Notes: a model not told the origin generated them from the letters alone. Counted from the stretch's first letter, positions 30,542-33,613 are shown. The stretch: 33,975 nt of DNA from Parcubacteria group bacterium (GCA_028286505.1 JAQBRK010000024.1:1-33975); one strand, 5' to 3'. Program-made: numbers and translations.

Positions 30542-33500
30542 ATGGAGACCAAAATACTTTCCCTGCCAAACAAAAAAGCCGTTGCAATCGGCGTGTTTTC
30601 CGTGCTTGCCGTGCTTGCGACCGGTTTCGGCATCGGTCTCGCAACGGGCGTCGTCAACGTACCGACGGCGTTCGCTTGCTGCGTGACGCCTCCGCCTCCG
30701 CCTCCTCCGCCGCCACCACCCCCACCTCCGCCACCCCCACCTCCCGCACCGGCGCCAGCTCCTGCACCGGCTCCTGTCACGGTGACGCCTCCGCCGCCTC
30801 CTACCTGTGATTTCGACGCGTCTCCATCGAGCGTTCAACAGGGAGGTTCTTCGACCCTTTCGTGGTCAACCAACAATGCGGATTCCGTTTCTATCGACGC
30901 CTTTGGCGCGGTGAACACATCCGGCTCTACCGGCGTGACTCCTTCGGTCACGACCACCTACACGCTTACCGCAACGAACTCGATTGCGACCGTTCGCTGT
31001 AACACCACCGTTACGGTAACCGTTCCTCTTCCTCCTGCACCGGTCTGTACGCTTTCCGCGAACCCGACCAACATCCAGCAGGGAGGTGCGTCTACTCTTA
31101 ACTGGACAACGAACAACGCTACCTCGGTGTCTATCGATAACGGCATCGGTGGCGTCGCTACTTCTGGCGGGCGCACGGTTACCCCGCTACAGACCACCAC
31201 CTACACTCTTACCGCAACCGGTAACGGCGGCACGGTGAACTGTAATGCGACCATTACGGTAACGCCTCCGGTAGTTCAACCACCTGCACCGGTCTGTACG
31301 CTTTCAGCGAACCCGACCAACATCCAGCAGGGCGGTTCCTCGAACCTCTCATGGAGCACGAACAACGCTACGTCGTTCACTATCAATCAGGGTATCGGAC
31401 AGGTAACTCCCGTTTCCGGTGGTTCTCGCACCATCTCGCCTTCGGTTACCACTACCTATACGGGTACGGCAACGGGTCCTGGCGGCACGGTGAACTGTAA
31501 TGCAACGGTTACCGTTACGGTTGTTCCTCCTGCACCGGTCTGTACGCTTTCCGCATCTCCGACTTCTATCCTTGCAGGCGGTACCTCAACCCTCTTCTGG
31601 ACAACCAGCAACGCTTCTTCCGTCACTATTACGAACGTCGGATCGGTTACTCCGGTATCGAGCGGTTCACGAAGCGTTTCGCCGACACAAACAACCACCT
31701 ACACCCTTACCGCAACCGGTAACGGCGGCACGGTGAACTGTAACGTGACCATCACTATCGTTACGCCCCAGGCTCCTGTCTGTACGCTCTCGGCAGTACC
31801 AACGTCCATTACCCAAGGTTCTGCAGCAACCCTTACCTGGACCACGAGCAACGCTTCGAATGTCTTCATCACTAACGTAGGTGGTGTAGAAAAGGGCGGT
31901 TCCGTTACGGTCGCGCCTTCGGTGACGACAACGTATACGCTTACCGCTTATGGCAGTAACGGTCAGCCGGTAAGTTGTTCGGCAACCATCACGGTGGTCA
32001 CTCCGAACTCCCCGGTCTGTACGCTCACGGCTTCGCCTACGAATATCCAGCAGGGAGGTTCATCCACGCTTACCTGGACGACGAACAACGCCACTTCCGT
32101 ATCTATCGATAACGGCATCGGCGGCGTCGCAACTTCAGGTTCTCGTAACGTAGCGCCAAGTTCGTCTACTACGTACACGCTCACGGCTTCGGGTCCCGGC
32201 GGCACGGTGTATTGTTCGGCACCAATCACGGTGACCTACATCCAGATACCTCCTGCACCGACCTGTACGCTTTCGGCGAACCCAAGCACGCTACGTTCCG
32301 GTGACGTCACGACGCTCTCGTGGACAACTACGAACGCGAACTCGTTCTCTATCGATCAGGGTGTTGGCTTCGTCAATCCCGTATCGAATGGTTCGCTTGG
32401 CGTTAATCCTGGCGGCAGCCGTACCTACACCGGTACCGCAACCGGCCCCGGAGGAACCGTCACCTGCGCTACCAGCGTATCGACCAGCTACTCACGCCCG
32501 GGACCTGCTTGTACCCTCAACGTTTCTCCTTCGACCATCAACAATGGCGACGAAGCAACGCTTACCTGGGACGGAACTAACGTAAACCAGGTTCGCATCA
32601 ACCAGGGCATCGGCTCGGTGAATGATGGCGGTTCTCGCACCGTGTCTCCTCGCGGAGCAGGTACGTACACCTACGAGGGAACCTTCTACGGAGATAACGG
32701 CAACGTCATCACGTGTTCTGCAACGCTTCGCGTTCGCGAACCGCAGCAGCATCTCGTTCTTGACTCGCTTCCTGTCGTCGGTCCTCAGCCGCTCTCGTAC
32801 GTCTATCTTGCCGATATGCCGTACACGGGTCTTGACCTTGGTCCCGTAGGAACCGCGCTCTACTGGCTCGGCCTCATCCTCTGGAGTCTTGCGGTCGCGT
32901 ACCTCGTGCTTTGGGGAGCAGTACCGTTCGCGCTTCGTCGCTTCGGACTCGCAGCTCCTGAGTTCGCTCATGCAACGAACCATGCGTATCCGCATGACGC
33001 TCCGGCTCCGCTTCTTGCCGCAGCATCCGCTGCAGCAGCGCACGTCGCGAAACCTGCCATGCACTCGGCCGTAGCTGCCGCTCCTGCTCGTACGTACTCT
33101 TCGTACTCAGGCTTCAAGGCTGTTGCCGAGAACGGCGCACTCACTATCGACGACATCGTTAAGGGACTTTCCCGCGAAACCGAGGTCCAGACCTACGTAC
33201 CGGCCGCTACCATTGCTGCAGCCGCACCCGTAGCACATGCCTATGTTGCTCCTGCAGCAGCACCTGCAGCTGTCTCAGCACCGGTTCACCAGGACATCCC
33301 GGCCTTCCTCACCGCTCTTATCAACGGCGAGAAGGAAACGGTCTTCGGTATCATTCGCGGCATCACAAAGGCAGGAGGCGATTCCCAGGAATTCCTCACG
33401 CACGTGGTATTCGCTCTCGATGATGCGTACCGCGCAAAGATGGACGGCACCGCCGTACATCCTGAAGTGGCTCGCGTCTGTGTAGATTGCGCACCGAACT

Positions 33501-33613
33501 TCCTCGAGCGCCTCGTGTCCTCGCTTTCCACTGCCGTCGATTCCAGCTACTCGGCAGGAGTGACGGGCGTGAAGCTTGCGGTTACGCGCGCGCTTCAGGT
33601 CGTAGAAGGGTAA
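30542..33613 (+). CDS. giant surface protein: N-terminal anchor/signal, 19-Pro + (AP)5 spacer, 8 Ig-like repeats, MPYTG + TM + RR segment, ~220 aa C-terminal domain
   Basis: 1023 aa. The hydrophobic N-terminus is AVAIGVFSVLAVLATGFGIGLATGV. Repeats of 79-83 aa each begin with a Cys (Cys codons at 30806, 31046, 31295, 31541, 31781, 32018, 32264, 32510). MPYTG lies at 32816-32830, followed by LDLGPVGTALYWLGLILWSLAVAYLVLWGAVPFALRRFG. An Ala-rich stretch and a helical domain follow. Confidence 0.8.
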   Translation: METKILSLPNKKAVAIGVFSVLAVLATGFGIGLATGVVNVPTAFACCVTPPPPPPPPPPPPPPPPPPPAPAPAPAPAPVTVTPPPPPTCDFDASPSSVQQGGSSTLSWSTNNADSVSIDAFGAVNTSGSTGVTPSVTTTYTLTATNSIATVRCNTTVTVTVPLPPAPVCTLSANPTNIQQGGASTLNWTTNNATSVSIDNGIGGVATSGGRTVTPLQTTTYTLTATGNGGTVNCNATITVTPPVVQPPAPVCTLSANPTNIQQGGSSNLSWSTNNATSFTINQGIGQVTPVSGGSRTISPSVTTTYTGTATGPGGTVNCNATVTVTVVPPAPVCTLSASPTSILAGGTSTLFWTTSNASSVTITNVGSVTPVSSGSRSVSPTQTTTYTLTATGNGGTVNCNVTITIVTPQAPVCTLSAVPTSITQGSAATLTWTTSNASNVFITNVGGVEKGGSVTVAPSVTTTYTLTAYGSNGQPVSCSATITVVTPNSPVCTLTASPTNIQQGGSSTLTWTTNNATSVSIDNGIGGVATSGSRNVAPSSSTTYTLTASGPGGTVYCSAPITVTYIQIPPAPTCTLSANPSTLRSGDVTTLSWTTTNANSFSIDQGVGFVNPVSNGSLGVNPGGSRTYTGTATGPGGTVTCATSVSTSYSRPGPACTLNVSPSTINNGDEATLTWDGTNVNQVRINQGIGSVNDGGSRTVSPRGAGTYTYEGTFYGDNGNVITCSATLRVREPQQHLVLDSLPVVGPQPLSYVYLADMPYTGLDLGPVGTALYWLGLILWSLAVAYLVLWGAVPFALRRFGLAAPEFAHATNHAYPHDAPAPLLAAASAAAAHVAKPAMHSAVAAAPARTYSSYSGFKAVAENGALTIDDIVKGLSRETEVQTYVPAATIAAAAPVAHAYVAPAAAPAAVSAPVHQDIPAFLTALINGEKETVFGIIRGITKAGGDSQEFLTHVVFALDDAYRAKMDGTAVHPEVARVCVDCAPNFLERLVSSLSTAVDSSYSAGVTGVKLAVTRALQVVEG
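30689..30745 (+). repeat. run of 19 consecutive proline codons, followed by (Ala-Pro)5
   Basis: Counted codon by codon in the frame of 30542: CCT CCG CCT CCG … CCC (mixed Pro codons), then GCA CCG GCG CCA GCT CCT GCA CCG GCT CCT to 30775. Confidence 0.9.
30806..32746 (+). repeat. eight tandem Ig-like coding repeats (79-83 aa)
   Basis: The consensus is C(T/D)LSA.P..I..GG.STL.W.T.NA.S..I..G.G.V…GS..V.P…TTYTLTA.G.GG.V.C.A.ITV. Segments 31034-31087 and 31283-31336 are 52/54 nt identical. Confidence 0.85.

What the first reader, a model, noticed from the sequence alone, without database searches (positions are those of the whole stretch)
32816..33613. Internal sortase-like sorting signal (MPYTG + TM helix + RR) followed by a further ~220 aa domain
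After the eighth Ig-like repeat the protein reads …YVYLAD-MPYTG-LDLGPVGTALYWLGLILWSLAVAYLVLWGAVPFAL-RRFG…. This is a P.TG pentapeptide, a hydrophobic span of about 35 aa and then basic residues, which is the tripartite layout of a cell-wall sorting signal.

In known substrates this signal ends the protein. Here another ~220 aa follow. They comprise an Ala-rich segment and a predicted helical domain (DIPAFLTALINGEKETVFGIIRGITKAGGDSQEFLTHVVFALDDAYRAKM…), which would be cytoplasmic.

Two readings are possible. Sortase cleavage could release the ~760 aa ectodomain and leave a TM + cytoplasmic fragment, giving a possible signalling or assembly-coupling role. Alternatively, the protein is simply a bitopic receptor.
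Basis: partly seen in the sequence, partly recalled or inferred. Interest (0 to 1): 0.65.

Follow-up and report, generated by a model that had tools for sequence, protein, structure and literature searches.

The report
Internal sortase signal with cytoplasmic tail
A large surface protein of an uncultured Paceibacteria (candidate phyla radiation, CPR) bacterium has a sortase-type cleavage and anchoring signal in the middle of the chain, with its own sortase gene next door and a conserved folded cytoplasmic domain after the signal, which departs from the rule that such signals end the protein.

Summary
ORF 30542-33613 (1023 aa) reads: N-terminal anchor, poly-Pro linker, eight Ig-like repeats, MPYTG (aa 759-763), a 30-aa membrane helix, RR, then 223 more residues.

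Its His/Cys/Arg triad is invariant in 80 orthologues.

The architecture is a conserved, syntenic Paceibacteria family with 581 representatives at E<1e-30 and no Pfam or NCBIfam model. The junction reads [IVLM]-P-[Y>Q,H,K,R,S]-T-G-[LF].

- Of 72 motif-bearing loci with enough upstream DNA, 71 have the sortase upstream.
- Four loci, from at least three lineages, have no ectodomain. They have also lost the motif and the sortase, but keep the membrane helix and cytoplasmic module.

So P-x-T-G is most likely a real, dedicated sortase signal. What follows it is an autonomous cytoplasmic module, not a frameshift artefact. Its last ~105 aa fold like domain III (the collar) of the DnaX clamp-loader subunit (TM 0.72), with sub-threshold Pfam support.

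Cleavage itself is untested. I rate this a new variant of a known kind; the evidence is entirely computational.

The parts
28237..28899 (+). Sortase gene (220 aa): N-terminal membrane anchor at aa 16-44 and catalytic H129, C196 (TLVTC) and R205.
   Evidence: Pfam PF04203 scores E 5.8e-21, 75 bits against a cutoff of 26.6. No NCBIfam sortase class reaches its cutoff. The nearest solved structures are class C sortases, E 5e-8. H129, C196 and R205 are invariant in 80 distinct orthologues. The gene lies upstream on the same strand in 71 of 72 informative motif-bearing loci.
26822..28123 (-). Membrane-anchored CARDB-domain protein (433 aa), transcribed divergently from the sortase. A possible accessory of the system.
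   Evidence: Pfam CARDB, E 4.7e-7. A homologue is present next to the sortase in essentially every syntenic locus. It is missing together with the sortase where gyrB directly abuts a minimal gene (L090; L095). Its internal LPTTG (aa 200) is not conserved.
29000..30451 (+). Intervening secreted protein of unknown function (483 aa). Variable, and not a conserved part of the system.
   Evidence: No Pfam or NCBIfam hit. Only 3-4 of about 170 loci have a weak relative. In L084 the sortase is directly followed by the substrate gene after a 77-nt gap.
30542..33613 (+). The 1023-aa P-x-T-G protein (whole gene, stop codon included).
   Evidence: There are 81 close homologues, and 581 representatives at E<1e-30 in a library clustered at 50% identity. 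It lies in the same syntenic slot between gyrB/sortase and ThrRS-DnaE-RNase HII.
30572..30661 (+). N-terminal hydrophobic segment (aa 11-40): a signal peptide or an uncleaved signal anchor. It is followed by AFA-CC.
   Evidence: Kyte-Doolittle scan. The segment is retained in the ectodomain-less relatives. Whether it is cleaved was not testable with these tools.
30683..30802 (+). Poly-Pro / Pro-Ala stalk (about aa 48-87).
   Evidence: Read directly from the translation.
30803..32734 (+). Eight Ig-like repeats of about 80 aa each, every one bracketed by a Cys pair. Only one Lys in 713 ectodomain residues.
   Evidence: Weak I-set / Ig_ADGRF3 Pfam hits occur in this protein and its relatives.
32789..32866 (+). 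Conserved juxtamembrane segment PLSYVYLADMPYTGLDLGPVGTALYW (aa 750-775).
   Evidence: Logo built from 276 distinct junctions.
32819..32830 (+). P-Y-T-G core (aa 760-763). The inferred scissile bond is T762-G763.
   Evidence: The X position varies (Y253, Q11, H4, S2, F2; K and R also seen) while P, T and G are held. The motif is degenerate or deleted only in ectodomain-less relatives.
32846..32935 (+). Transmembrane helix (aa 769-798), followed by RR (nt 32936-32941).
   Evidence: Hydropathy scan. AlphaFold2 gives a helix at aa 767-800 with pLDDT 80-93. Y/W/A/Y positions within the helix are conserved.
33095..33178 (+). Conserved cytoplasmic motif YSSYSGFKAVAENGALTIDDIVKGLSRE (aa 852-879), flanked by disordered Ala/Pro-rich linkers.
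   Evidence: Invariant or near-invariant columns G124, F125, D138, I139, V140, G142, L143. Two short helices with pLDDT 67-76.
33293..33610 (+). C-terminal six-helix domain (aa 918-1023) with the fold of clamp-loader DnaX domain III.
   Evidence: AlphaFold2 pLDDT 90.6, pTM 0.81. In Foldseek the top 35 PDB hits are all clamp-loader subunits, 34 of them E. coli clamp-loader chains, with TM 0.69-0.74 and rmsd 2.0-2.9 Å over about 113 columns, E about 1e-2. PF12169 gives sub-threshold hits in 4 of 27 homologues, best E 2.3e-4. hhalign against E. coli DnaX domain III gives only 18% probability.

Best explanation
**What it is.** The gene encodes the single, dedicated substrate of the sortase encoded two genes upstream. 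Both belong to a conserved core locus of Paceibacteria (Parcubacteria, CPR).

**Inferred steps.**
1. The protein inserts with its N-terminal anchor and the aa 769-798 helix in the membrane. The poly-Pro stalk and eight Ig-like repeats lie outside, and the C-terminal 223 aa lie in the cytoplasm.
2. The membrane-anchored sortase recognises the extended juxtamembrane element (...YLSxxPYTG-LDLGP...). It cuts between T762 and G763 and transfers the roughly 720-aa ectodomain to an envelope nucleophile, most likely a peptidoglycan precursor.
3. What remains is not a disposable C-peptide. It is a helix plus a conserved cytoplasmic module: the GF..ALTIDDIVKGLSR motif and a DnaX-domain-III-like helical domain.
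4. That module has a function of its own, because lineages that lost the ectodomain, the motif and the sortase still keep it.
5. By analogy with clamp-loader collars, that function is most plausibly oligomerisation or partner binding on the inner face of the membrane. This would place or cluster the precursor, or report that processing has occurred.

**Shown here:** architecture, conservation, the sortase neighbour with its catalytic triad, co-loss of the parts, and the fold.

**Inferred:** cleavage, the acceptor, and the role of the cytoplasmic module.
For: 1. The tripartite signal sits at the ectodomain/membrane junction. The T-G bond lies just outside the predicted helix.
2. The adjacent sortase has an N-terminal anchor and invariant H129/C196/R205.
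3. All 80 species-level genome loci and most metagenome loci carry [IVLM]-P-x-T-G-[LF]. Variation sits mainly at the X position (Y, Q, H, K, R, S), the pattern expected of an LPXTG-type motif.
4. The contingency table is motif+/sortase+ 71, motif+/sortase- 1, motif-/sortase+ 0, motif-/sortase- 4, Fisher p 4e-6.
5. The motif-less genes form at least three separate lineages whose nearest relatives carry the motif. In L090 and L095, gyrB directly abuts the minimal gene, so the CARDB gene, the sortase and the ectodomain were removed together.
6. Distant members (PYTGF or PHTGF, with an extra cytoplasmic domain) also have the sortase 0-2 genes upstream.
7. No other ORF in about 170 loci of up to 20 kb carries a canonical C-terminal P.TG + TM signal, so this family is the only visible substrate near the sortase.
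8. The TM and cytoplasmic module are strongly conserved even in minimal forms.
9. There is a precedent for the post-cleavage membrane remnant acting as a signal in Streptococcus gordonii, as cited in PMC11502775.
Against: - No biochemical or proteomic evidence of cleavage exists.
- The sortase, its substrate and their neighbours lie in one long syntenic block (gyrB ... ThrRS-DnaE). Adjacency alone is therefore not independent evidence, and the Fisher test is not corrected for phylogeny.
- Conservation extends about 9 residues upstream and about 12 downstream of P-Y-T-G. That is unusual for sortase signals and could reflect a structural role.
- YTGLDLGPVGT resembles the repeat motif YTGTATGPGGT of repeats 3 and 7.
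- One motif-bearing locus (L118) has no sortase within 9 kb.
- The sortase matches no defined class, so its specificity cannot be inferred.
- Whole genomes could not be scanned for other sortases or substrates.
Confidence: 0.6

Rival explanations
1. The protein is an uncleaved membrane receptor or anchor. It stays whole, spanning the membrane once or twice. The PYTG-containing segment is a structural juxtamembrane element, possibly a remnant of an Ig-repeat F-G hairpin. The neighbouring sortase serves substrates encoded elsewhere.
For: - The conserved segment is about 25 residues long, far more than a pentapeptide.
- The junction matches the repeat 3/7 motif YTGTATGPGGT at 7 of 11 positions, shuffle p about 0.01.
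- The cytoplasmic module is conserved and functional without any motif.
- Adjacency could be inherited synteny.
- L118 has the motif but no nearby sortase.
Against: - The motif degenerates exactly where the ectodomain and the sortase are lost, in at least three lineages.
- Variation at X with P, T and G held fixed fits enzyme recognition.
- No alternative substrate is visible near the sortase in about 170 loci.
- The repeat resemblance holds for only 2 of 8 repeats, and Pro760 has no counterpart in them.
Confidence: 0.22
2. Sortase-driven polymerisation. The sortase works like a pilin (class C) sortase and joins ectodomains head to tail into a fibre, or ligates them to another surface protein such as the divergently encoded CARDB protein, rather than to peptidoglycan.
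For: - The best, though weak, matches of the sortase are class C enzymes (NCBIfam 42.7 bits; PDB E 5e-8).
- Tandem Ig-like domains are typical of pilins.
- The CARDB gene is co-conserved and co-lost with the sortase.
Against: - The ectodomain has a single Lys (aa 451) in 713 residues and no recognisable pilin motif.
- Only one substrate gene is present.
- The class C score is far below its cutoff of 160, and class E scores almost the same.
- LPTTG in the CARDB protein is not conserved.
Confidence: 0.12
3. Artefact: two genes, a canonical sortase substrate and a separate cytoplasmic protein, were fused by a sequencing or assembly error.
For: In one distant lineage (L176-L178) the reading frame is broken at an A9 run 27 codons after the helix. 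This gives a 521-aa protein ending 47 aa after the helix and a separately called 209-aa cytoplasmic protein.
Against: - The window ORF is continuous.
- More than 150 loci from independent assemblies have the same single ORF.
- Even in L176, adding one A restores a 769-aa protein of the family architecture.
Confidence: 0.02

Closest known systems
LPXTG-type cell-wall sorting signals of Gram-positive bacteria and their sortases (SrtA paradigm)
   Same: An N-terminal export signal. A P-x-T-G motif at the outer face of the membrane, followed by a hydrophobic helix and basic residues. A membrane-anchored Cys transpeptidase with a His/Cys/Arg triad.
   Different: - The signal is internal: 223 aa here, and 160-425 aa across the family, follow the helix, including a folded conserved domain.
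- The motif is [IVLM]PYTG[LF] inside a roughly 25-residue conserved block.
- No LPXTG-anchor or sortase-class model of NCBIfam is matched at threshold.
- The organism is a CPR bacterium.
Dedicated one-sortase/one-target pairs, such as the class GN 'marine' sortase TIGR03784 with its adjacent single target (target description recalled from memory)
   Same: One sortase gene is kept next to one substrate gene. The motif is specialised and strongly conserved rather than generic.
   Different: - The window's sortase scores 23 bits against the TIGR03784 cutoff of 158.
- The motif and the taxon differ.
- As far as I recall, the known targets end with the sorting signal, without a cytoplasmic domain.
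C-peptide signalling after sortase A cleavage in Streptococcus gordonii (cited in PMC11502775)
   Same: The membrane-embedded remnant left after LPXTG cleavage has a function of its own.
   Different: There the remnant is a roughly 30-aa peptide sensed within the membrane by a histidine kinase. Here it would carry a cytoplasmic module of about 220 aa with its own fold. No kinase is encoded nearby.
Domain III (collar) of the clamp-loader subunits DnaX gamma/tau, delta and delta' (Pfam PF12169)
   Same: The last ~105 aa adopt the same helical fold: TM 0.69-0.74, rmsd 2.0-2.9 Å. Weak sequence signal is present in 4 of 27 homologues. The N-terminal 'F..AL..GD....F..LR.....G' helices align with DnaX.
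   Different: - No AAA+ domains I-II are present.
- The domain is attached to a membrane helix.
- The Pfam threshold is not reached and the hhalign probability is 18%.
- The relationship may be fold-level only.

Membership tests
Canonical sortase substrate (C-terminal LPXTG-type cell-wall sorting signal) | N-terminal signal for export | tested here: inconclusive
   The hydrophobic segment at aa 11-40 follows KK. It is long for a signal peptide and is retained in minimal forms. Cleavage at AFA|CC was not testable.
Canonical sortase substrate (C-terminal LPXTG-type cell-wall sorting signal) | LPXTG-like pentapeptide immediately before a hydrophobic segment and basic residues | tested here: met
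   MPYTG at aa 759-763, helix at 769-798, RR at 799-800. The layout is conserved in 276 distinct junctions.
Canonical sortase substrate (C-terminal LPXTG-type cell-wall sorting signal) | The signal ends the protein, with only a short charged tail | tested here: not met
   223 aa follow the helix here. Across the family the distance from the motif's Pro to the C-terminus is 163-424 aa.
Canonical sortase substrate (C-terminal LPXTG-type cell-wall sorting signal) | Match to curated LPXTG-anchor models | tested here: not met
   No NCBIfam or Pfam hit for the protein or for its C-terminal 265 aa.
Canonical sortase substrate (C-terminal LPXTG-type cell-wall sorting signal) | A cognate sortase is encoded in the genome | tested here: met
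   A sortase lies at 28237-28899. Co-occurrence is 71 of 72 motif-bearing loci and 0 of 4 motif-less loci.
Canonical sortase substrate (C-terminal LPXTG-type cell-wall sorting signal) | Cleavage between T and G and covalent transfer to the wall | not testable with these tools
   Requires biochemistry or proteomics.
Sortase (PF04203) - the neighbouring gene | Pfam domain above the gathering score, with the catalytic His, Cys (TLxTC) and Arg | tested here: met
   75 bits against a cutoff of 26.6. H129, C196 and R205 are invariant in 80 sequences.
Sortase classes A-F and GN (NCBIfam subfamily models) | Score above the class-specific cutoff | tested here: not met
   The best score is class C at 42.7 bits against a cutoff of 160. 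Class E scores 40.3 against 160, and GN 23.3 against 158.
Clamp-loader DnaX/HolA/HolB family | Domain III sequence model PF12169 at threshold | tested here: not met
   The window protein has no hit. Four of 27 homologues hit below threshold, best E 2.3e-4. P0193 scores 16.2 bits against a cutoff of 24.4.
Clamp-loader DnaX/HolA/HolB family | Domain III fold | tested here: met
   Foldseek TM 0.69-0.74 normalised to the query, and the top 35 hits are all clamp-loader subunits.
Clamp-loader DnaX/HolA/HolB family | AAA+ ATPase domains I-II N-terminal to domain III | tested here: not met
   The domain is preceded by a membrane helix and disordered linkers.

The most novel reading that the evidence does not exclude
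Sortase cleavage is a maturation switch rather than only an anchoring step. It separates the wall-linked ectodomain from a membrane-tethered, DnaX-collar-like cytoplasmic domain. That domain then oligomerises or docks onto clamp-loader/replisome components; dnaE and gyrB flank the locus. Envelope assembly would thereby be coupled to chromosome replication or segregation in these minimal cells. In the lineage with the A9 run, a dnaX-style slippage would set the ratio of tail-less to tailed isoforms.
Probability: 0.06. Interest if true: 0.9.

Novelty: new variant of a known kind. Interest (0 to 1): 0.66.

Why it matters
**For the sortase field.** Sortase signals are defined, and searched for, as C-terminal elements. 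Here a whole conserved family in a major uncultured lineage places the signal internally, in front of a folded cytoplasmic domain. If cleavage is confirmed, this family would be:
- a natural case in which the sortase "leftover" is a full domain, so surface anchoring and a cytoplasmic function would be coupled in one polypeptide;
- a new sortase specificity ([IVLM]PYTG[LF] with an extended context) that could be useful for protein ligation;
- a reason to revise substrate-prediction rules that require the signal to end the protein.

**For CPR biology.** It names a single-copy, core-locus surface protein and its processing enzyme, in organisms whose envelope is poorly understood.

Tried and rejected
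- **Curated models.** Pfam and NCBIfam scans of the protein and its C-terminal part gave no family.
- **Solved structures by sequence.** A PDB sequence-profile search with the module gave nothing even at E 10.
- **Other substrates nearby.** A scan of all ORFs in the window and in about 170 loci found only spurious short ORFs with a canonical C-terminal P.TG + TM signal.
- **LPTTG in the CARDB protein (aa 200).** The Gly is not conserved in 87 orthologues, so I rejected it as a signal.
- **The junction as a truncated Ig repeat.** It resembles only repeats 3 and 7 (p about 0.01) and none of the other six. I kept it as a minor point for the rival reading, not as an explanation.
- **Homology of the C-terminal domain (CTD) to DnaX.** hhalign against E. 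coli domain III gave 18% probability, so I claim fold similarity with weak sequence support only.
- **Stand-alone or otherwise fused CTDs.** A search with the CTD profile returned fragments, mis-started genes and the A9-split lineage. P0178, a UvrD-like N-terminus joined inside the helix, looks like a chimeric assembly.
- **Literature.** Searches for PYTG + sortase, Parcubacteria or Patescibacteria + sortase, and internal LPXTG found no description of this family.
- **Not possible.** Whole genomes could not be scanned for further sortases or substrates with the tools at hand.
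Full report
**1. The observation**

The window carries one uninterrupted ORF at 30542-33613 (+), 1023 aa.
- MPYTG is aa 759-763 (nt 32816-32830) and is the only P.TG in the protein.
- A hydrophobic stretch runs from aa 769 to 798 and RR follows at 799-800. 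Another 223 residues follow before the stop.
- A second hydrophobic segment lies at aa 11-40, after two lysines.
- Between the two lie a poly-Pro/Pro-Ala stalk and eight ~80-aa Ig-like repeats, each bracketed by a Cys pair.
- From composition, 0.016 P.TG are expected in a 12-residue window before a helix.

The description is accurate. The one correction is that the hydrophobic span is about 30 aa, not about 35.

**2.

The window is chromosomal DNA of a CPR bacterium. It carries L25, RF, S2, EF-Ts, PheS/T, adenylate kinase and GyrB, and named homologues come from Candidatus Paceibacterota/Kaiserbacteria.

Two genes upstream on the same strand, 28237-28899 encodes a 220-aa protein with an N-terminal membrane anchor and ...LTLVTC... 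near its end.
- It matches Pfam Sortase at E 5.8e-21, 75 bits against a cutoff of 26.6.
- It matches no NCBIfam sortase class at threshold. Class C scores 42.7 and class E 40.3, both against 160.
- Its nearest solved relatives are class C sortases, at only E 5e-8.
- In 80 distinct orthologues H129, C196 and R205 are invariant, so the enzyme looks active.

**3. A conserved family, not an accident of this genome**

The last 290 aa have 81 strong homologues, E 1e-90 to 1e-32, all unnamed. A profile search of 1.84 billion representatives finds 3829 proteins at E<1e-3 and 581 at E<1e-30. Part of the weaker tail is due to the Ig-repeat columns in the profile. Many hits are 500-1400 aa long with the module at their C-terminus.

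All share the order: Ig-like repeats, junction, helix, linker, GF.SFA..ALTIDDIVKGLSR, linker, helical domain. More distant members read PYTGF or PHTGF and carry an extra cytoplasmic domain (...VL.S.EAL...YPREDGW..LN.ER...) before the same terminal domain.

From 276 distinct junctions the consensus is L-[AS]-[YF]-[VL]-Y-L-S-[QE]-I-P-Y-T-G-L-[DE]-L-G-P-x-G-T-x-x-Y-W. Those segments were collected with the pattern P.[TS]G, so P and G are fixed by construction. The independent points are two. All 80 species-level loci have the motif. And position X varies (Y, Q, H, S, F, K, R), as expected of an LPXTG-type signal.

No Pfam or NCBIfam model covers the family. The literature searches found no description of it.

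**4. Link between motif and sortase**

The locus is syntenic across Paceibacteria: PheST, GyrB, CARDB(-), sortase, 0-2 variable genes, the P-x-T-G gene, then ThrRS(-), DnaE(-), RNase HII, L32, NusB. Adjacency by itself could therefore be inherited gene order. What carries the argument is co-variation.

Among loci with distinct junctions and enough upstream DNA:

| | sortase upstream | no sortase |
|---|---|---|
| motif present | 71 | 1 (L118, a rearranged locus) |
| motif absent | 0 | 4 |

Fisher p is 4e-6, not corrected for phylogeny.

The motif-less genes encode ~315-330-aa proteins (332-374-aa ORFs as measured). These keep the N-terminal anchor, a loop of a few dozen residues, the helix and the full cytoplasmic module. 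The junction is deleted (P0079: LSAVP-GPIGT) or degenerate (VATLG, ATSTG, ISYAG).
- In L090 and L095, gyrB directly abuts the minimal gene. The CARDB gene, the sortase and the ectodomain-coding DNA are all gone.
- The minimal genes fall into at least three lineages (L090/091; L095; L092/093/101/161/162). The nearest relatives of each carry the motif; for example, L095 is 78% identical to motif-bearing L096. This points to repeated joint loss.
- No other ORF in the window or in about 170 loci has a canonical C-terminal P.TG + TM signal.
- The LPTTG inside the CARDB protein is not conserved.

**5. The part after the signal**

AlphaFold2 on the 290-aa C-terminal segment gives a confident helix at aa 767-800. 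After it come low-confidence Ala/Pro-rich linkers, two short helices in the GF...IDDIVKGL motif, and a six-helix domain with pLDDT above 90. Modelled alone, the last 124 aa reach pLDDT 90.6 and pTM 0.81.

- Foldseek against the PDB returns clamp-loader subunits as the top 35 hits, 34 of them E. coli clamp-loader chains. TM is 0.69-0.74 normalised to the query and rmsd is 2.0-2.9 Å over about 113 columns. E-values are only about 1e-2.
- Independently, PF12169 (DNA_pol3_gamma3) is the only Pfam family hit by more than one homologue: 4 of 27, best E 2.3e-4, below threshold.
- hhalign against E. coli DnaX domain III aligns the first helices at 18% probability.

I therefore call it DnaX-domain-III-like in fold, with weak hints of homology. 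In clamp loaders this domain forms the oligomeric collar (established knowledge), so oligomerisation or partner binding is the most economical guess for its role here.

**6. Most likely mechanism, and its limits**

The protein is exported with the ectodomain outside and the tail inside. This fits the distribution of charge: K10/K11 precede helix 1, D766 precedes helix 2 and RR follows it. The dedicated sortase would cut T762|G763 and attach the ectodomain to the envelope. The helix and cytoplasmic module would remain and carry a function that predates, or is independent of, the cargo.

The ectodomain has one Lys in 713 residues. That argues against pilin-type Lys-mediated polymerisation, although the sortase's weak best matches are class C.

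Nothing here shows cleavage. The unusually long conserved block around the motif, and its resemblance to the YTGTATGPGGT motif of repeats 3 and 7, leave room for a structural reading.

A precedent for a functional post-cleavage remnant exists in S. gordonii, as cited in PMC11502775. That remnant is a short peptide.

**7. Verdict**

- The sortase-signal interpretation is supported by comparative genomics but unproven biochemically.
- The frameshift and two-gene explanation is excluded for this window.
- The system fails one defining feature of canonical sorting signals, namely that the signal ends the protein, and it matches no sortase class. I therefore file it as a new variant of a known kind, not as a member of an existing family.

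Noticed in passing
L176:6527-6535 (also L177:1671-1679 and L178:160-168): In one distant lineage the family gene is broken at an A9 run (GAA TAT AAA AAA AAA GTT) 27 codons after the membrane helix. As written it gives a 521-aa protein ending 47 aa after the helix, plus a separately called 209-aa cytoplasmic protein. One extra A restores a 769-aa protein of the normal architecture. The same A9 is present in three contigs from three different assemblies. It could be programmed transcriptional or ribosomal slippage, as known for dnaX, a real split, or a recurrent homopolymer error.
   Followed up: partly
window 2386-5867 and 7455-11020 (+): This is a duplicated two-gene cassette. It pairs a ~320-aa membrane-anchored protein ending ...TKLVF (48% identical copies) with an ~840-860-aa CARDB/PKD surface protein ending ...VN[VI]IP.F.EF (41% identical copies). 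The copies are separated by an apolipoprotein N-acyltransferase-like gene (5919-7454). The shared C-terminal IPxFxEF ending might be another sorting tag.
   Followed up: partly
window 26822-27400 (-), C-terminal third of the CARDB protein: There are five tandem Asn/Ser-rich units of the form SYDSNGNYCSYGTY..N.R.YC, each with two Cys. The gene is co-conserved with the sortase and is lost with it in L090 and L095.
   Followed up: partly
window 30683-30802 (+): A run of about 20 consecutive Pro codons followed by (Pro-Ala)5 forms the stalk. On the opposite strand it creates spurious poly-Gly and Arg-rich ORFs (30478-30838).
   Followed up: no
window 32825-32857 versus 31412-31444 and 32381-32413 (approx.): The juxtamembrane YTGLDLGPVGT matches YTGTATGPGGT of Ig repeats 3 and 7 at 7 of 11 positions (shuffle p about 0.01) but matches none of the other six repeats. 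The sorting motif may have arisen from a truncated repeat, or the match may be chance.
   Followed up: partly
P0189, P0193, P0194, P0201, P0205, P0207, P0211 (distant homologues); L084:10001-12175: Distant family members carry an additional conserved cytoplasmic domain between the helix and the terminal domain (...RAHA.GVL.S.EAL.....YPREDGW..LN.ER...). It has no Pfam match. The window protein has only the short ALTIDDIVKGLSR motif in that position. P0170, P0186 and P0197 end right after this domain.
   Followed up: no
window 30668-30682 (aa 43-47, AFACC): A Cys-Cys pair directly after the N-terminal hydrophobic segment recurs in distant homologues (GCCGG in P0194, GCCGD in P0197). It could mark a processing or acylation site.
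   Followed up: no
P0178 (376 aa): A UvrD-like helicase N-terminus is joined to the family module in the middle of the membrane helix. It is most likely a chimeric metagenome assembly.
   Followed up: no
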